Positions 774 through 11,871 of a stretch of DNA of 64,000 nt are shown here, piece after piece. This DNA comes from Patescibacteria group bacterium (GTDB lineage Bacteria; Patescibacteriota; Patescibacteriia; JAXHNJ01): assembly GCA_041649715.1 (NCBI GenBank), contig JBAZMP010000002.1, positions 196,964 through 260,963 on the forward strand, in the 5' to 3' direction. Position numbers and translations under genes: made by a program. Each line of letters starts with the position of its first letter. The first letter of the stretch is position 1. The notes under the pieces were generated by a model. The model searched no databases. It saw nothing but the letters and a program-made list of their open reading frames with translations, and was not told where the DNA came from.

Positions 774-1325
774 TTATCGCAGGTATTTAACCAGGTGTAT
801 TTCGTCGACATACCGGCCGTAGTGCTTAAGCCCTCTTTTTAGCCGGCCGTATTCCTCAAAGCCGCAAGTGCGGTAGACTTTTTGGGCCCTTAAGTTAGGC
901 GACATGACCGTAAGAATGACCATGTTTACCCCAAGAATTTTTTTGGCTTCCTGAATGACGATTTTCAGGAGTTTTTTGCCCAAGCCTCTGTTCTGGTATT
1001 CTTTTCGGATCATGATGCCGAAAGTGCCGATATAATGTCTGTCCGGCCCGCCAGCGCTAACTACTTGGCAGTTGCCCACGATTGTTCCATTGGAAATAGC
1101 AAGCAAATGAACAACTTTTTTCTTAGCGATGTTTTTGAGCAAGGCAGACAGCCACTTTTTTTCCTGGCGGAGATTGACCTTTTTTTGAACGGTAAGATAC
1201 GCTCTGTCGGCCACGAGCGCGTTGATCAGGTCTTTTAAGCCGATAAGATCACTGGCTTGGGGATAGCGGATAATGACGTTTTGACCTTCAAATCTGAATA
1301 CCTTGATGATCTTTTGTTTTTTCAA
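774..1325 (-). CDS. GNAT family N-acetyltransferase
   Basis: 183 aa with the acetyl-CoA binding motif QNRGLGKKLL and a RimI-like layout. Confidence 0.8.
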   Translation of the reverse strand: MKKQKIIKVFRFEGQNVIIRYPQASDLIGLKDLINALVADRAYLTVQKKVNLRQEKKWLSALLKNIAKKKVVHLLAISNGTIVGNCQVVSAGGPDRHYIGTFGIMIRKEYQNRGLGKKLLKIVIQEAKKILGVNMVILTVMSPNLRAQKVYRTCGFEEYGRLKRGLKHYGRYVDEIHLVKYLR

Positions 1326-8461: not shown

Positions 8462-9232
8462 ATGCCAGAAAACAGCGGCAAGAAAGAAGGAGGAGGAAAC
8501 AAGGGAATATTGGATGCCCCGCCTAAAACGACGTTTGTCATGGGAATTTTAGTCGGCGTGGTCGTTTGCGCCATTGTCGGCGTGGTTTTATCCCTGACCG
8601 TCGTGCAGACCAAGACTGCCTCAAATACCAATACTGTCGCGGGGGCGAACAGCAACAGTAATACCAATGCGGATGCGGTTGATCCGCGGGTCAGTGCGAC
8701 CAGTATCGCCCAATACGCCAGTGATTTGGGGTTGGATATCACTAAATTCAACTCCTGTATTAATGACGGTGAAAAAACGAAAACCGTCACTGACATGGCG
8801 ACCGCCGGTCAGGCCCTGGGAGTCCAGGGTACGCCCGCGACTTTTGTGAACGGTTATCTTGTGAGCGGTGCGATACCGTACGCGGATTTCAAGGCCATTG
8901 TTGACGAAGTGCTGGCCGGTAACGCGCCGACTTCCCAATACGCGGAAAAAACCGCGGTCGACGTGAAAGTGACTGAGGCCGACCATGTGGAAGGCGACGC
9001 CGGCGTTAAAGTGACACTGGTGGAATATTCGGATTTCCAGTGCCCCTATTGTTTGAATCACGCTTCGACCTTAAAACAAATTCTTGAAGAATATAGCGGC
9101 AAGGTTAAAATAATCTTCCGTCATTTTCCGCTTTCATTCCACGCCAACGCCCAGTTAGCGGCAGAGGCTTCAGAATGCGCCTCGGTTCAGGGAAAATTCT
9201 GGGAGATGCATGACAAGTTATTCGAACTCTAG
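8462..9232 (+). CDS. DsbA-like thiol:disulfide oxidoreductase, apparently circularly permuted, membrane anchored
   Basis: N-terminal TM anchor and Asn/Thr/Ser linker. The domain carries the DsbA C-terminal-type segment (YASDLGLDITKFNSCINDG...GVQGTPATFVNG) BEFORE the N-terminal-type CxxC segment (VTLVEYSDFQCPYC...GKFWEMHDKLF). Confidence 0.7.
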   Translation: MPENSGKKEGGGNKGILDAPPKTTFVMGILVGVVVCAIVGVVLSLTVVQTKTASNTNTVAGANSNSNTNADAVDPRVSATSIAQYASDLGLDITKFNSCINDGEKTKTVTDMATAGQALGVQGTPATFVNGYLVSGAIPYADFKAIVDEVLAGNAPTSQYAEKTAVDVKVTEADHVEGDAGVKVTLVEYSDFQCPYCLNHASTLKQILEEYSGKVKIIFRHFPLSFHANAQLAAEASECASVQGKFWEMHDKLFEL

Positions 9233-10003: not shown

Positions 10004-10048
10004 TAAAGATAAACAAAAAACAGACTGTATGGGGCCTGTTTTTATTTT

Positions 10049-10170
10049 TGGTACCAGGGGTGGGGATCGAACTTCACCCCGCCTAGAAAGGCGGGGCAAG
10101 CGACCTCGGGCTTATGAGTCCCACGCTCTACTTCACCCCGCCCAACGGGGCGGGGCAAGCTGAGCTACCC
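10049..10170 (-). pseudogene. tRNA-Met-like partial duplicate (equivalent to tRNA positions ~5-76) disrupted by two GC-rich hairpin insertions
   Basis: Three segments (10049-10072, 10102-10131, 10160-10170) are identical to the tRNA-Met at 10420-10495. They are interrupted by ttcaccccgcc-tagaaa-ggcggggcaagc (10073-10101, in the T-stem 5' strand) and ttcaccccgccc-aac-gggcggggcaag (10132-10159, in the D-loop). The acceptor 5' strand is not conserved. Confidence 0.6.
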
Positions 10171-10412
10171 GTGGAAATAGAAATATATTTTTTATATTGA
10201 TTATTCTTTTTCTTTAACCAGATTTCGTGCCGGCGCGCTTCTTTGTAGCTATTATGTTCCTTTAGGTAAACTAACCGATAAGGTTTTTTCTTAGCGGTTA
10301 TTTTCAATTTACCTTGATTATGTTCCGATAGTCTTTTTTGCGGATGGCGAGAAATTCCGGTATAGTAACTCTTTTCCTTTATACTCTGAATAAGATATGT
10401 GTAGACTTTCAT
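10128..10412 (-). CDS. GIY-YIG nuclease family protein (UPF0213/YhbQ-like)
   Basis: KVYTYLIQS...YYTGISRHPQKRLSEHNQG fits the GIY-YIG motif. The last ~15 codons read into the tRNA-like fragment. It begins 8 nt from the tRNA-Met 3' end. Confidence 0.7.
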   Translation of the reverse strand: MKVYTYLIQSIKEKSYYTGISRHPQKRLSEHNQGKLKITAKKKPYRLVYLKEHNSYKEARRHEIWLKKKNNQYKKYISISTGSSACPAPLGGVK

Positions 10413-10419
10413 AAACCTA

Positions 10420-10495
10420 TGGTACCAGGGGTGGGGATCGAACCCACGACCTCGGGCTTATGAGTCCCACGCTCTACCAACTGAGCTACCCTGGC
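10420..10495 (-). tRNA. tRNA-Met (anticodon CAT; elongator-type features, could also be a lysidine-modified Ile2 type)
   Basis: Reverse complement is GCCAGGGTAGCTCAGTTGGTAGAGCGTGGGACTCATAAGCCCGAGGTCGTGGGTTCGATCCCCACCCCTGGTACCA. Cloverleaf folds with a CTCATAA loop, a C11-G24 pair and CCA encoded. Confidence 0.85.
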
Positions 10496-10496
10496 T

Positions 10497-10571
10497 TGGG
10501 TGCGGGGGTGGGATTTGCACCCACGACCTCCGGATTATGAGCCCGGCGAGCTGCTACTGCTCCACCCCGCG
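10497..10571 (-). tRNA. initiator tRNA-fMet (anticodon CAT)
   Basis: Reverse complement is CGCGGGGTGGAGCAGTAGCAGCTCGCCGGGCTCATAATCCGGAGGTCGTGGGTGCAAATCCCACCCCCGCACCA. It has the C1xA72 mismatch, an A11-T24 pair and G-C pairs at the base of the anticodon stem, all typical of bacterial initiators. It sits 1 nt from tRNA-Met. Confidence 0.8.
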
Positions 10572-10618
10572 CGCTGATTACATCTTATATTAACAAAGAT
10601 TATTAATTGAGTCAATAA

Positions 10619-11374
10619 TTAGACTTTTTGGCAGACCCAAACCATTTCCCGGCTCTTGTCCGTGAAATTAGAGCGCTTAAAATCGCCATAGAGTTTTAAA
10701 GGTTTGAAACCGGTTAAGGCCAATAAATGCTCAAATTCAAAACGGAAAATATATCGCATCATCATTTTAAATTCTTTTTTCTCCACTAGAAGATTATGTT
10801 TATCCAATTCTTCGTGAATATATGTTATTTTTAGAATTTGATCGGCCGAATAAAAATGGTTAATGGCCGAGATTTTCACCTTGTTTTTCGTCACCGGATC
10901 TTTTACGTACGAATGGAATTCTTTTTTACCGTTGAAATTCGCCATTCTGTTATAATCCGGGTTAAAAAAATTAAGGATTAGTCTGCCCTTGTTGGTTAGG
11001 TGTTTGTGAATAGAAAGCAAGGCGCTTTTTTGCTCCTTGGCGTTTAAAAGATGAAGAAAGCTGCGGCAGGGAATAATGATTAAATCAAACTTTTTGTTCA
11101 GGTCAAAATTCCGCATGTCAGCCAGGTAGGTTTTGGGTTTTAAGCCGGCCGCCTTGGCTTTTCTTTGCAGGGTTTTCAGCATGCTTGGCGAGTTATCCAA
11201 ACCGTCAATATTAGCCCTGGCTTTTAAGGCGGGGATCATAATTCTACCGGTGCCGCAGGCGATATCAAGCGTTCTTTTTGATTTTTTTATCTCGGATAAA
11301 TAAAACCTCAGGTCTTCTTTAAAGCCTTGAAGTTGCAAATCGTATTCTTCGCCGGAAAATAAATAAGTGTTCAT
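10619..11374 (-). CDS. class I SAM-dependent methyltransferase
   Basis: SAM-binding motif LDIACGTGRI and a motif II/III-like LIIIPCRSF. Confidence 0.8.
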   Translation of the reverse strand: MNTYLFSGEEYDLQLQGFKEDLRFYLSEIKKSKRTLDIACGTGRIMIPALKARANIDGLDNSPSMLKTLQRKAKAAGLKPKTYLADMRNFDLNKKFDLIIIPCRSFLHLLNAKEQKSALLSIHKHLTNKGRLILNFFNPDYNRMANFNGKKEFHSYVKDPVTKNKVKISAINHFYSADQILKITYIHEELDKHNLLVEKKEFKMMMRYIFRFEFEHLLALTGFKPLKLYGDFKRSNFTDKSREMVWVCQKV

Positions 11375-11487
11375 ATTTTTTAGTATTATAAGGTGATTTT
11401 ATCATTAATGTTCCTTTACGGCAAATAAAAAAGGCGTCGTACCCAGGGGGTCGTGCGCCTTAACCTTGTTTGTTATTTTTTGTGAAA

Positions 11488-11518
11488 AGCTCGCGACAGC
11501 AGGTCGCGAGCTCCTTTT
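11488..11518 (-). terminator. rho-independent terminator (bidirectional-looking)
   Basis: Perfect 10-bp stem agctcgcgac/gtcgcgagct (11488-11497 and 11503-11512) with a 5-nt loop. T-tracts on both sides. Directly downstream of the 11517 stop of the small minus gene. Confidence 0.6.
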
Positions 11519-11738
11519 ATTTCTTGGGATTCCAGCCAACCACTATCCCCAACGGTTTAAACGGATCCCGGAGCAATGCTCCTCCCGGGAAATTCCGTAG
11601 ATTTTCCGCTCCGGACACCGGGCCTTCGACACCAGCTATGTCGAAAAGGGCTGTTGCCCCTACGGGACAATCGCATGGTAGATCGTTGTTGCCGGTCTCG
11701 ATCACGCCCGTATCGTTGCACTTCGGGCATTTTGCCAT
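11517..11738 (-). CDS. small Cys-containing hypothetical protein
   Basis: 73 aa, MAKCPKCNDTGV...CDC. AGGAGG SD lies 7 nt upstream. Followed by the strong terminator above. Confidence 0.5.
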   Translation of the reverse strand: MAKCPKCNDTGVIETGNNDLPCDCPVGATALFDIAGVEGPVSGAENLRNFPGGALLRDPFKPLGIVVGWNPKK

Positions 11739-11871
11739 TTCATGCCTCCTTTCAAGGAACCGGAATACTTAAGTCTTAAGTTATTTTGCAAATATTATCC
11801 TATTTGGATAATATAAAACCTTATCAGAAATATTAAGGAATGTCAAGATATAATTTAGAATATAGACAAAA

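What the first reader, a model, noticed from the sequence alone, without database searches (positions are those of the whole stretch)
10049..10571. GIY-YIG nuclease gene sandwiched between an intact tRNA-Met and a hairpin-disrupted copy of the same tRNA, next to tRNA-fMet
In the tRNA's own orientation the order is tRNA-fMet, intact tRNA-Met, an 8-nt gap, the GIY-YIG ORF, then a near-full-length second copy of tRNA-Met (positions ~5-76).

The second copy carries two ~28-nt GC-rich palindromic insertions (TTCACCCCGCC...GGCGGGGCAAG) in the T-stem and D-loop. The nuclease ORF runs into it.

This looks like the attL/attR footprint of a minimal mobile or homing unit that targeted tRNA-Met. Alternatively it is a duplicated tRNA invaded twice by a miniature palindromic element. 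Either reading is unusual, and both inserts share the same termini.
Basis: seen in the sequence. Interest (0 to 1): 0.65.

Follow-up and report, generated by a model that had tools for sequence, protein, structure and literature searches.

The report
Hairpin-linked mini nuclease splitting tRNA genes
A tiny DNA-cutting enzyme gene sits between a working tRNA-Met gene and a dead copy of it that carries two 28-base hairpins; the same gene-plus-hairpin package recurs at many tRNA genes across Patescibacteria, which points to a selfish mobile element I could not find described.

Summary
On the minus strand lie tRNA-fMet, an intact tRNA-Met, 7 nt, a 94-aa GIY-YIG ORF, then a second tRNA-Met copy. 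That copy matches positions 5-76 exactly, except that 3 nt in the D-loop and 3 nt in the T-stem are each replaced by a 28-nt hairpin, CTTGCCCCGCC-N6-GGCGGGGTGAA.

It is one member of a widespread Patescibacteria family. In 29 of 30 homologous loci the ORF touches this hairpin. Usually the layout is intact tRNA, then ORF, then a hairpin-disrupted copy of the same tRNA type (Thr, Val, Phe, Ile, Lys, Met).

Four lines of evidence support mobility:
- Close relatives of the window genome have a single tRNA-Met and no ORF.
- In four or more loci the intact tRNA is foreign, and the flanking fragments belong to one split resident tRNA.
- In seven or more other loci the two hairpin arms are the inverted ends of a roughly 270-bp unit holding only the ORF.
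- ORF-less hairpins are dispersed, and about half lie beside tRNAs.

The protein is an SLX1/UPF0213-type catalytic core with no DNA-binding domain.

Best reading: a homing-like selfish cassette whose palindromic ends also exist as MITE-like solo copies. It disables the resident tRNA and supplies a replacement. The cutting and insertion chemistry is inferred, not shown. The literature searches found no description.

The parts
10587..10615 (-). Promoter-like site (TTGACT-17-TAATAT with TG) upstream of tRNA-fMet; probable start of the single transcription unit
   Evidence: This is a consensus match only. The region aligns loosely with the upstream region of tRNA-fMet in relatives.
10497..10571 (-). 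tRNA-fMet (CAT), intact; neighbour, not part of the mobile unit
   Evidence: Rfam 55.8 bits, 1:72 unpaired. It is present next to tRNA-Met in relatives L036-L038.
10420..10495 (-). Intact tRNA with anticodon CAT (called Met; Ile2 not excluded), with encoded CCA; the functional copy ('T')
   Evidence: Rfam 65.8 bits. It lies 1 nt after tRNA-fMet, whereas relatives have a 50-106 nt spacer.
10413..10419 (-). 7-nt spacer (TAGGTTT) between the tRNA CCA end and the ATG; no room for a promoter and no Shine-Dalgarno-like sequence
   Evidence: The spacer is 0-9 nt in most family members.
10128..10412 (-). GIY-YIG nuclease ORF, 94 aa. Residues 1-82 form the catalytic core; residues 83-94 are encoded by the tRNA copy and hairpin 1
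   Evidence: - Pfam match.
- Profile against PDB: UPF0213 E=1e-9, then SLX1.
- AF2 pLDDT is >90 for residues 1-82 and <50 for 83-94.
- Foldseek hits: UPF0213, At-HIGLE, Slx1.
- Y17, G19, R27, H31 and E63 are invariant in 25 homologues.
10049..10176 (-). Disrupted second copy of the same tRNA ('P'): positions 5-76 identical to T apart from two hairpin replacements; not recognised as a tRNA
   Evidence: Its 3' flank (AATAAAAACAG... terminator) is the flank found after the single tRNA-Met of relatives, so this copy sits at the ancestral 3' end.
10132..10159 (-). Hairpin 1 in the D-loop (minus strand CTTGCCCCGCC CCGTTG GGCGGGGTGAA), replacing TTG; read through by the ORF
   Evidence: The same hairpin at the same D-loop position follows the ORF in 32 of 46 distinct family ORFs.
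10073..10100 (-). Hairpin 2 in the 5' strand of the T-stem (CTTGCCCCGCC TTTCTA GGCGGGGTGAA), replacing TGG
   Evidence: Extra hairpins at varied positions occur in other disrupted copies.
10016..10043 (-). Terminator-like stem-loop with T run, directly after the disrupted copy

Best explanation
The locus is one copy of a selfish cassette that is widespread in Patescibacteria. I found no description of it.

The cassette has three components:
- A gene for an ~80-aa SLX1/UPF0213-type GIY-YIG nuclease, which is a catalytic core only.
- A 28-nt GC-rich palindrome with arms CCCCGCC/GGCGGGG, flanks CTTG and TGAA, and a free 4-7-nt centre.
- In the tRNA-borne form, an intact tRNA gene.

Shown:
- The cassette lodges in tRNA genes whose D-arm reads TAGCTCAG..GTAGAGC.
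- The result is an intact tRNA, the nuclease ORF abutting it, and a displaced copy of the same tRNA that always carries the palindrome in its D-loop and often more copies elsewhere.
- In several loci the intact tRNA came in from outside and the resident gene is the split or disrupted one.
- The palindrome arms are also the inverted ends of a ~270-bp stand-alone form containing only the ORF.
- ORF-less palindromes are scattered, mostly beside tRNAs.

Inferred:
- The nuclease is structure-selective, like SLX1. It cuts at stem-loop or palindromic DNA (a D-arm or hairpin loop).
- The break is repaired by copying from a cassette-bearing template through the tRNA homology on both sides. This is homing-like spread between genomes and alleles.
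- The solo hairpins are MITE-like derivatives mobilised in trans.
- Because the resident tRNA is disabled and the working copy is linked to the ORF, the cassette cannot be lost without losing the tRNA.
- In the window the unit is transcribed with the tRNA operon (promoter 10615, terminator 10016). The mRNA 5' end is probably made by tRNA 3' processing.
For: (1) Recurrence.
- 30 loci from named genomes were retrieved by protein alone. In 29 the family hairpin or its half-arms lie within about 60 nt of the ORF.
- The intact tRNAs upstream are Thr-CGT/GGT/TGT, Val-GAC, Phe-GAA, Ile-GAT, Lys-CTT/TTT and Met-CAT, with a gap of 0-9 nt to the ATG in most.

(2) Empty site.
- Relatives L036-L038 have DsbA-Lgt-tRNAfMet-tRNAMet with no ORF and no second copy.
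- The window's disrupted copy keeps the ancestral 3' flank.

(3) Insertion into a resident tRNA.
- In L011, L017 (=L058, L126), L088 and L053, a 5' fragment (positions 1-26 plus hairpin) upstream pairs 7/7 with the 3' acceptor strand of the downstream disrupted copy. The intact tRNA between them has a different, self-consistent acceptor stem.
- In L006 and L010 the intact tRNA's 5' strand pairs better with the disrupted copy's 3' strand (7/7) than with its own (6/7). That marks a chimera from a crossover inside the tRNA.

(4) Arms as element ends.
- In L021, L030, L032, L174, L178, L181 and L183, similarity starts at ..CCCCGCCAA, runs through the ORF and stops at TTGGCGGGG... The flanks are unrelated.
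- About 15 of 24 homologues of the L030 ORF end in KLAG, which is the translation of TTGGCGGGG.
- In L174 a wHTH domain match spans the insertion point once the two halves of the host ORF are rejoined (E=1.7e-4, below Pfam's cut-off).

(5) Solo hairpins.
- Of 112 distinct canonical copies in metagenome contigs, 37 lie in a 5' tRNA fragment 10-112 nt upstream of an intact tRNA on the same strand. In 32 of those 37, at least 10 of 15 nt match that tRNA.
- A further 20 lie downstream of an intact tRNA, and only 1 is antisense.

(6) Constraint.
- ORF third-codon identity is 0.48, while the arms are 0.97-0.98 identical and the centres vary.
- In hairpins not selected by the search pattern, 302 of 315 arm pairs are consensus.
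- In the window the same nucleotides are read in a different frame than in most homologues. The conservation is therefore in the DNA, not the protein tail, and the tail is disordered in the model.

(7) Protein class.
- UPF0213, At-HIGLE and Slx1 are the best sequence and fold matches. I-TevI and UvrC are far weaker.
Against: - No cleavage activity or site is known for this protein, and the small UPF0213 proteins are uncharacterised.
- An intact tRNA with the same D-arm sits next to the nuclease gene. If the D-arm were the cut site, something would have to protect it.
- No target-site duplication or precise insertion rule was found for the hairpins. Inserts are 23-28 nt with variable ends.
- About half of the solo hairpins have no tRNA or ORF within range, and only about 10% are ORF tails.
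- Identical proteins P0095 (15 contigs) and P0018 (24 contigs) always sit in the same context, so there is no direct sign of recent movement.
- The window itself gives no foreign/resident contrast, because its two copies are identical.
- In L029, L067 and L133 the disrupted copy matches the intact tRNA rather than the upstream fragment.
- The tRNA operon is also inverted relative to relatives, so the empty-site comparison is not a clean one.
Confidence: 0.5

Rival explanations
1. The hairpins are an independent REP/MITE-like palindromic repeat of Patescibacteria, spread by some other enzyme or by replication or repair template switching. They accumulate in any dispensable stem-loop, such as a redundant tRNA copy. 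The GIY-YIG gene is a separate tRNA-adjacent homing or repair gene that merely ends in one of them.
For: - Most solo hairpins have no ORF nearby: 54 of 112 have no tRNA in range, and only about 10 of 94 hits are ORF tails.
- Hairpins occur in a terminator loop (L056) and inside another hairpin (L027).
- Inserts have variable ends and no target duplication.
- Only two copies exist in the 64-kb window.
Against: - 29 of 30 protein-selected loci have the hairpin or its arms in contact with the ORF.
- In seven or more independent loci the two arms bracket the ORF exactly, and homology ends at the arms.
- The D-loop hairpin is fixed at the ORF end while the ORF has diverged to 0.48 third-position identity.
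- No other candidate enzyme gene recurs in the loci.
Confidence: 0.2
2. The hairpin-bearing tRNA-like sequence is a functional RNA part of the nuclease transcript. It could be a 3' structure that stabilises the mRNA, or one that stops RNase P and other tRNA-processing enzymes from cutting inside the ORF. It could also be an RNA decoy or antitoxin for the nuclease.
For: - There is one promoter-like and one terminator-like site for the whole unit, with none between.
- The 132-nt RNA folds into a cloverleaf-like shape with extended arms: -67.7 kcal/mol, z=-4.4.
- The ORF overlaps the 5' half of the copy, so an intact tRNA fold there would invite cleavage inside the message. This last point is inference.
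Against: - The arms are conserved as sequence, not just as pairs. G.T (4) and A.C (3) mismatches are balanced, so there is no sense-strand bias.
- The same hairpins sit in 5' fragments upstream of tRNAs, inside protein-coding genes, and as ends of the stand-alone ORF unit.
- The number and position of extra hairpins vary from locus to locus.
Confidence: 0.1
3. This is a classical integrative element footprint: attL/attR direct repeats left by an integrase-mediated insertion into the 3' part of tRNA-Met.
For: Two direct copies of a tRNA flank a foreign gene. A tyrosine-recombinase gene lies about 700 nt upstream in one related locus, L001/L002.
Against: - No integrase lies between or next to the copies in the window. 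The interval holds only the 94-aa ORF.
- The repeat covers positions 5-76, not just a 3' segment.
- In other loci the junctions are at the D-loop or inside the tRNA.
- The recombinase in L001 is outside the unit and absent from the other loci.
Confidence: 0.03
4. An ordinary tandem tRNA duplication is decaying by chance, with a housekeeping GIY-YIG gene between the copies.
For: Tandem tRNA genes are common. The two copies are otherwise identical.
Against: - The two 28-nt replacements share 22 of 28 bases and never occur in shuffles.
- The same construct recurs at eight or more tRNA types in many lineages.
- Relatives lack both the ORF and the duplicate.
Confidence: 0.02

Closest known systems
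Free-standing GIY-YIG homing endonuclease genes of T-even phages (Seg family, e.g. SegB in the T4 tRNA gene cluster; PMC2330249)
   Same: - A GIY-YIG nuclease gene sits free among tRNA genes, outside any intron.
- It shows presence/absence polymorphism between relatives.
- Spread would be by break repair that co-converts flanking tRNA sequence.
   Different: - By my own knowledge, Seg proteins are roughly 200 aa or more and have a DNA-binding domain. This protein is an 82-aa catalytic core.
- Its closest relatives are UPF0213 and SLX1, not I-TevI.
- Seg genes do not duplicate and disable their target gene, carry no palindromic ends, and leave no solo hairpins.
- The host is a cellular Patescibacteria genome. 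Only distant relatives (<=43% identity) were found in viral contigs.
UPF0213 small GIY-YIG proteins (BH0048, EF2693) and the SLX1 structure-specific endonuclease core
   Same: Best sequence and fold matches, with the same size and secondary-structure order. SLX1 cuts branched DNA (own knowledge).
   Different: - UPF0213 proteins have no known function or known link to repeats.
- SLX1 needs SLX4 and has a RING domain.
- The HE.WLKKK clade here is a small branch: 24 clusters at E<=1e-10 out of 1626 at E<=1e-3.
REP/REPIN with RAYT, and MITEs with their parent insertion sequences (PMC3116915)
   Same: Short palindromic units are dispersed in the genome. Their arms equal the inverted ends of a unit that encodes a single protein, with ORF-less copies outnumbering ORF-bearing ones.
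   Different: - The associated protein is a GIY-YIG nuclease, not a Y1/HUH or DDE transposase.
- The unit is only about 270 bp.
- No target-site duplication is seen.
- There is a strong bias for tRNA D-loops in one orientation: 57 same-strand against 1 antisense.
- Copy number per genome is low: 2 in 64 kb here.
Integrative elements that insert into tRNA genes and restore them with their own copy of the tRNA 3' part (own knowledge)
   Same: A tRNA gene is the target, a tRNA-derived direct repeat flanks the insert, and the function is restored by element-borne sequence.
   Different: - There is no integrase.
- The element brings or creates a whole tRNA.
- The displaced copy is nearly full length and is further disabled by hairpins.
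Mobile short hairpin inserts in RNA genes: transposing archaeal tRNA introns (Fujishima et al. 2010, as cited in PMC10714607) and GC-cluster palindromes of fungal mitochondria (own knowledge)
   Same: Related hairpins of about 25 nt are found at several positions of tRNA sequences. GC-rich palindromes sit in an AT-rich genome.
   Different: - This is a bacterium, with no bulge-helix-bulge geometry.
- The hairpin-bearing copies lack a sound acceptor or T stem and sit beside an intact copy, so they are not spliced genes.

Membership tests
GIY-YIG nuclease superfamily, UPF0213/SLX1-like branch | Significant match to the GIY-YIG catalytic domain profile | tested here: met
   PF01541 at E=4.8e-13, 49.7 bits against a cut-off of 22.6, covering residues 3-76.
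GIY-YIG nuclease superfamily, UPF0213/SLX1-like branch | Conserved catalytic-core residues (Tyr of GIY and YIG, Arg, Glu) | tested here: met
   Y17, G19, R27, H31 and E63 are invariant, and Y6 and N32 nearly invariant, in 25 homologues at 48-71% identity. Assigning these residues to catalytic roles is by analogy, not tested.
GIY-YIG nuclease superfamily, UPF0213/SLX1-like branch | GIY-YIG alpha/beta fold closest to UPF0213/SLX1 | tested here: met
   AF2 pLDDT is >90 over residues 1-82. Foldseek top hits are 1zg2 (UPF0213), 7wme (At-HIGLE) and 6seh/7cq2/4xm5 (Slx1); I-TevI scores E=0.5. The PDB profile search gives the same order.
GIY-YIG nuclease superfamily, UPF0213/SLX1-like branch | Nuclease activity | not testable with these tools
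   Needs biochemistry.
Free-standing GIY-YIG homing endonuclease (Seg/I-TevI type) | Catalytic domain joined to a sequence-specific DNA-binding domain | tested here: not met
   The protein is 94 aa. Residues 83-94 are encoded by the tRNA copy and hairpin and are modelled as disordered. No second Pfam domain is found.
Free-standing GIY-YIG homing endonuclease (Seg/I-TevI type) | Gene present in some genomes and absent from the same site in close relatives | tested here: met
   L036-L038 (Lgt 81-84% identical) have tRNA-fMet plus a single tRNA-Met and no ORF. The operon is also inverted there, so the comparison is not clean.
Free-standing GIY-YIG homing endonuclease (Seg/I-TevI type) | Cleaves the ORF-less allele near the insertion point and is copied in by repair | not testable with these tools
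   There is only indirect support: chimeric and foreign tRNAs at the junctions.
Integrase-mediated tRNA-targeting integrative element (attL/attR) | Tyrosine or serine recombinase encoded in the element | tested here: not met
   The only ORF between the repeats is the GIY-YIG gene.
Integrase-mediated tRNA-targeting integrative element (attL/attR) | Short direct repeat limited to the 3' part of the tRNA | tested here: not met
   The repeat spans positions 5-76.
MITE / REP-like palindromic repeat | Many dispersed copies of a short palindromic unit | tested here: met
There are only 2 copies in this window.
MITE / REP-like palindromic repeat | Ends shared with an ORF-bearing parent unit | tested here: met
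   Seven independent loci have CCCCGCCAA..ORF..TTGGCGGGG with unrelated flanks. None of them is in the window.
MITE / REP-like palindromic repeat | Target-site duplication, or a DDE/HUH transposase as mobilising enzyme | tested here: not met
   No duplication is seen at the insertions compared with the intact copy. The only linked protein is GIY-YIG.
Functional tRNA (for the second copy) | Recognised cloverleaf with intact acceptor, D and T arms | tested here: not met
   It is not called by ARAGORN, nor by Rfam at E<=1. Three nt of the T-stem 5' strand are replaced, and the acceptor 5' strand is altered.
Intron-containing tRNA (archaeal bulge-helix-bulge or group I) | Bulge-helix-bulge motif at the insert borders, or a group I ribozyme core | tested here: not met
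   The fold shows an 8-9-bp stem, a 1-nt bulge and a 3-bp outer stem. There is no Rfam intron match, and the inserts are only 28 nt.

The most novel reading that the evidence does not exclude
The roughly 270-bp unit, made of 9-11-bp palindromic ends (CCCCGCCAA..TTGGCGGGG) around an 80-aa GIY-YIG nuclease gene, is an autonomous DNA mobile element of a new class. It would be the smallest known, and the first in bacteria driven by a GIY-YIG structure-selective nuclease. It would move by cutting hairpin or stem-loop DNA and letting host repair copy it in. Its 28-nt ORF-less derivatives behave as MITEs. A tRNA-borne form enforces its own retention by destroying the resident tRNA gene and carrying the replacement.
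Probability: 0.3. Interest if true: 0.9.

Novelty: new variant of a known kind. Interest (0 to 1): 0.8.

Why it matters
If correct, this would matter in four ways:
- It adds a new way for a selfish gene to persist. It knocks out an essential single-copy tRNA gene and supplies the only working copy, all in about 0.4 kb.
- It gives a first biological role and a testable substrate (a defined 28-nt palindrome and the tRNA D-arm) to the large, uncharacterised UPF0213 family of mini GIY-YIG nucleases.
- It explains tRNA-like debris next to tRNA genes in Patescibacteria genomes. That debris can confuse tRNA annotation and gene calling, because ORFs are extended into tRNA sequence.
- It offers a very small nuclease-plus-site pair that could be examined as a tool.

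Tried and rejected
- **Integrase/att model:** no recombinase lies in the unit.
- **Known RNA family for the disrupted copy or hairpin:** nothing beyond the three tRNAs at E<=1.
- **Intron reading** (bulge-helix-bulge or group I): rejected on geometry and size.
- **Defence-system or phage-family assignment of the protein:** no PADLOC or PHROGs hit, and NCBIfam gave only noise.
- **Phage origin:** viral contigs hold only distant GIY-YIG relatives, at <=43% identity. They were not examined further.
- **Sense-strand RNA selection on the hairpin:** G.T and A.C mismatches are balanced at 4 against 3. An earlier covariation count was discarded because the search required pairing.
- **Recent transposition:** identical proteins P0095 and P0018 are always in one context.
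- **Protein-level conservation of the tail LAQLAPPxxGGVK:** rejected. The same DNA is read in another frame in the window, and the tail is modelled as disordered.
- **Literature:** six full-text searches and three papers checked found no description of a GIY-YIG/hairpin/tRNA element in Patescibacteria.
- **Automated acceptor-stem scripts:** they had offset errors for the upstream fragment. The F/P pairings quoted were read by hand from the sequences.
Full report
**1. What is in the window**

Read on the minus strand, the order is as follows:
- a promoter-like site (10615-10587);
- tRNA-fMet (10571-10497);
- 1 nt;
- an intact tRNA with anticodon CAT and encoded CCA (10495-10420);
- 7 nt (TAGGTTT);
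- an ORF of 94 codons (10412-10128);
- a second copy of the CAT tRNA (10176-10049), overlapping the ORF's last 49 nt;
- a terminator-like stem-loop (10043-10016), 5 nt further on.

The second copy equals positions 5-76 of the intact gene base for base. The exceptions are D-loop TTG and TGG in the 5' strand of the T-stem. Each is replaced by 28 nt: CTTGCCCCGCC-CCGTTG-GGCGGGGTGAA and CTTGCCCCGCC-TTTCTA-GGCGGGGTGAA.

The pattern occurs twice in 64 kb and never in 100 shuffles. No other hairpin of this kind and no other GIY-YIG ORF is present. ARAGORN and Rfam (E<=1) do not recognise the second copy as a tRNA. The ORF stops at the TAG of the D-stem GTAGAG, just after hairpin 1.

**2. The protein**

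The ORF matches Pfam GIY-YIG at E=4.8e-13. A profile of it and 24 homologues finds the small UPF0213 proteins BH0048 and EF2693 first (E=1e-9 and 2e-8). SLX1 comes next, and I-TevI scores only E=0.4.

The AlphaFold model is confident for residues 1-82 (pLDDT >90). It is disordered for residues 83-94, the part encoded by the tRNA copy and hairpin. Foldseek gives UPF0213, At-HIGLE and Slx1 as best matches.

This is a bare catalytic core without a DNA-binding domain, of the branch whose characterised members cut DNA structures rather than sequences (that last point is my own knowledge). It has no hit in PADLOC, PHROGs or NCBIfam. The exact protein is annotated in an NCBI Patescibacteria MAG on a 262-kb contig.

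**3. It is a family, not an accident**

Homologues at 55-60% identity end in ..KLAQLAPPxxGGVK. This is the translation of D-arm GCTCAG plus CTTGCCCCGCC..GGCGGGGTGAAG plus TAG.

A protein-based scan of one genome per species returned 30 loci, in Berkel-, Nomura-, Roizman-, Falkow-, Buchanan-, Doudna- and Kerfeldbacteria, Minisyncoccia and Saccharibacteria-labelled MAGs. A few bins were labelled as Proteobacteria. In 29 of these 30 loci the hairpin or its arms touch the ORF.

The commonest layout, which is the window's, has three parts:
- an intact tRNA (Thr-CGT/GGT/TGT, Val-GAC, Phe-GAA, Ile-GAT, Lys-CTT/TTT or Met-CAT);
- 0-9 nt in most cases, then the ORF;
- a copy of the same tRNA type from about position 5-8 to the end. 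It always has the hairpin in the D-loop and often has one or two more, in the anticodon loop, at 26/27, in the variable/T-stem region or in the T-loop.

All these tRNAs share the D-arm TAGCTCAG..GTAGAGC.

The ORFs have diverged to 0.48 identity at third codon positions. The hairpin arms are 0.97-0.98 identical and the centres vary freely. In hairpins not selected by the search pattern, 302 of 315 arm pairs are the consensus pair. G.T (4) and A.C (3) mismatches are balanced. The constraint is therefore on the DNA sequence of the arms. It is not on the protein tail, because the window reads the same bases in another frame. It is not on a sense-strand RNA helix either.

**4. Evidence that the unit is an insertion**

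(a) *Empty site.* Genomes whose Lgt is 81-84% identical carry DsbA-Lgt-tRNAfMet-tRNAMet-terminator, with a single CAT elongator-type tRNA, no GIY-YIG gene and no second copy. Their tRNA differs from the window's at one T-loop base.

The window's disrupted copy is followed by the same AATAAAAACAG.. terminator that follows the single gene in the relatives. The intact copy lies 1 nt from tRNA-fMet, instead of 50-106 nt. The disrupted copy therefore marks the ancestral 3' end of the gene.

The comparison is not clean. The whole tRNA operon is inverted in the window relative to these relatives, and a 220-aa gene is missing.

(b) *Foreign intact tRNAs.* Many loci also carry, upstream of the intact tRNA, a 5' fragment (positions 1-26) with the same hairpin in its D-loop. 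In four cases the fragment's acceptor strand pairs 7/7 with the 3' acceptor strand of the downstream disrupted copy. The intact tRNA between them has a different, self-consistent stem (sequences).

| Locus | Fragment / disrupted copy | Intact tRNA stem |
|---|---|---|
| L011 | GCGCGAT / ATCGCGC | GGGCGGT / ACCGCCC |
| L017 (=L058, L126) | GCCGATG / CATCGGC | GCCAGTG / CACTGGC |
| L088 | GCGCGGT / ACCGCGC | GGGCGGT / ACCGCCC |
| L053 | GCTGGGA / TCCCAGC | GTCGAGA / TCTCGAC |

A resident tRNA has thus been split around an incoming tRNA plus ORF.

(c) *Chimeras.* In L006 and L010 the intact tRNA's 5' strand pairs 7/7 with the disrupted copy's 3' strand, but only 6/7 with its own. This is expected if the crossover lay inside the tRNA. 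Three loci (L029, L067, L133) do not fit this simple picture.

**5. The hairpin arms are the ends of a stand-alone form of the same gene**

In L021, L030 and L032, and in L174, L178, L181 and L183 (found through homologues), the ORF lies inside the palindrome. The arrangement is [T/C]T[T/C][A/G]-CCCCGCCAAT.., then ATG and the ORF, then ..A(A)TT-GGCGGGG-[C/T]AA[G/A].

An alignment of the seven loci shows similarity starting at the left arm and ending at the right arm, with unrelated flanks. About 15 of 24 homologues of the L030 ORF end in KLAG or KLAGQ, the translation of TTGGCGGGG.

These copies are not at tRNAs. L174 interrupts a small wHTH gene. When its two halves are rejoined, a wHTH profile match spans the junction (E=1.7e-4, below Pfam's cut-off).

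The ORF occurs in both orientations relative to the asymmetric outer flanks (TTCA..CAAG in L021, CTTG..TAAA in L181). The short centres of solo hairpins do the same: TGAGCTA 12 against TAGCTCA 3, and TAGTTCA 4 against TGAACTA 4.

**6. Solo hairpins**

The 112 distinct copies break down as follows:

| Context | Copies |
|---|---|
| In a 5' tRNA fragment 10-112 nt upstream of an intact tRNA on the same strand | 37 |
| Downstream of an intact tRNA | 20 |
| Antisense to a tRNA | 1 |
| No tRNA in range | 54 |

- In 32 of the 37 upstream cases, at least 10 of 15 nt match that tRNA's 5' end. Ile, Gly, Ala, Gln, Ser and Met tRNAs are among them.
- The fragments upstream of intact tRNAs without an ORF are what recombination between the two direct tRNA copies would leave after deleting the ORF. 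This is inference.
- The copies with no tRNA in range include one in the loop of an intrinsic terminator (L056).
- Hairpins can be nested in a hairpin loop (L027).
- In L009, confirmed in 24 contigs through P0018, an intact tRNA-Thr sits inside the hairpin loop of the disrupted tRNA-Thr.

**7. Mechanism: what is shown and what is inferred**

Shown:
- Nuclease gene, palindrome and tRNA duplication recur together.
- The unit is absent from relatives.
- Intact tRNAs are foreign or chimeric.
- The palindrome arms are the ends of the ORF unit.
- ORF-less palindromes are dispersed with a strong tRNA and orientation bias.

Inferred:
- The nuclease is structure-selective and cuts stem-loop or palindromic DNA.
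- The break is repaired from a cassette-bearing template using tRNA homology, which is homing-like.
- Solo hairpins are mobilised in trans.
- Disabling the resident tRNA makes the linked copy indispensable.
- The ORF is expressed from the tRNA operon transcript. Only one promoter-like and one terminator-like site flank the unit, and the 0-9-nt gap leaves no room for a leader.

Open problems:
- What protects the adjacent intact D-arm.
- The absence of a target duplication or insertion rule.
- The flip-flop of the centre.
- The lack of direct evidence for recent movement.

I put 0.5 on the overall reading. The particular cut-and-repair steps deserve clearly less.

**8. Rivals**

- An independent palindromic repeat that merely colonises dispensable tRNA copies (0.2). 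It fits the many ORF-less copies. It does not fit the exact bracketing of the ORF by the arms, or the 29/30 contact.
- A functional RNA role for the hairpin-bearing tRNA-like 3' region (0.1). It fits co-transcription and the stable fold. It does not fit the balanced G.T/A.C counts or the other contexts of the hairpin.
- An integrase att footprint (0.03) and chance decay of a tandem duplicate (0.02). Both are contradicted by the anatomy and the recurrence.

**9. Comparison with what is known, and novelty**

The nearest known systems are:
- free-standing GIY-YIG homing genes such as T4 SegB in a tRNA cluster (PMC2330249);
- REP/REPIN-RAYT and MITE-parent pairs (PMC3116915);
- tRNA-targeting integrative elements;
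- mobile short hairpins in archaeal tRNAs or fungal mitochondria.

None of them combines a domain-less SLX1-like GIY-YIG core, palindromic ends that also exist as 28-nt solo copies, and replacement of the target tRNA.

Six full-text searches and three papers checked found no description. A recent survey of tRNA introns in Patescibacteria does not mention GIY-YIG, hairpins or tRNA pseudogenes.

I rate it a new variant of a known kind (homing-type selfish gene plus MITE-like repeat). I put a 0.3 chance on its being a categorically new class of mobile element.

Noticed in passing
window 10016-10620 compared with L036:3251-3640 and L037:1253-1600: The whole tRNA operon (promoter, fMet, Met, terminator) is inverted in the window relative to the closest relatives. 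The fMet-Met spacer is 1 nt instead of 50-106 nt. A 220-aa gene lying between the tRNAs and the methyltransferase in relatives is absent.
   Followed up: partly
L009:2190-2400; L192:1440-1610 (P0018, 24 contigs): An intact tRNA-Thr(GGT) is nested inside the loop of the D-loop hairpin of a disrupted tRNA-Thr. The hairpin stem continues into the acceptor stem (CCCCGCCAGAGCCGATG...CATCGGCTCTGGCGGGG). Here the ORF follows a class Ib aminoacyl-tRNA synthetase gene by 1 nt.
   Followed up: partly
L174:1261-1830; L184:1028-1479; L021:2950-3460; proteins P0097, P0108, P0109: The stand-alone (arm-ORF-arm) form is repeatedly tied to a small membrane-anchored wHTH gene. It lies upstream of it in L021, inside it in L174, and with its middle missing in L030/L184. 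In three proteins the nuclease ORF is fused in frame to the wHTH C-terminal part. This could be a preferred target or a partner.
   Followed up: partly
L027:2900-2992; L056 around 1098-1123 (minus); L026:3233-3279; L018:2740-2930; L025:942-1700: Several complex arrangements occur: a hairpin nested in a hairpin loop, a hairpin inside the loop of an intrinsic terminator, tandem hairpins, tandem 100-nt repeats of a 5' fragment plus hairpin, and a tandem duplication of the whole ORF plus disrupted tRNA.
   Followed up: no
L178 vs L179, downstream of the ORF (about 70 nt after the right arm); L192 vs L197 after the disrupted tRNA: Contigs with the identical nuclease protein diverge abruptly a short distance downstream. 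In L192 against L197 the divergence begins exactly at the 3' end of the disrupted tRNA. This suggests recombination breakpoints at the unit's border.
   Followed up: no
window 11400-11800: A GC-rich island (0.48-0.56, against 0.33-0.37 around it) lies between the methyltransferase gene and tRNA-Leu. It contains a 73-aa Cys-rich ORF (11517-11738, minus strand). There is no Rfam match.
   Followed up: no
window 8462-9232: The DsbA-like ORF matches the C-terminal part of the DSBA profile (residues 81-144) before the N-terminal part of Thioredoxin_4 (residues 172-254), as if two half-domains were joined. Relatives show a similar pattern.
   Followed up: no
protein P0120 (2015 aa): A very long protein matched residues 47-89 of the query in 13 separate stretches at E=1.8e-22. 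This is possibly a lysine-rich repeat or repeated translated element sequence.
   Followed up: no
window 10420-10495: The 'tRNA-Met' call rests on the CAT anticodon alone. A lysidine-modified tRNA-Ile2 was not excluded.
   Followed up: no
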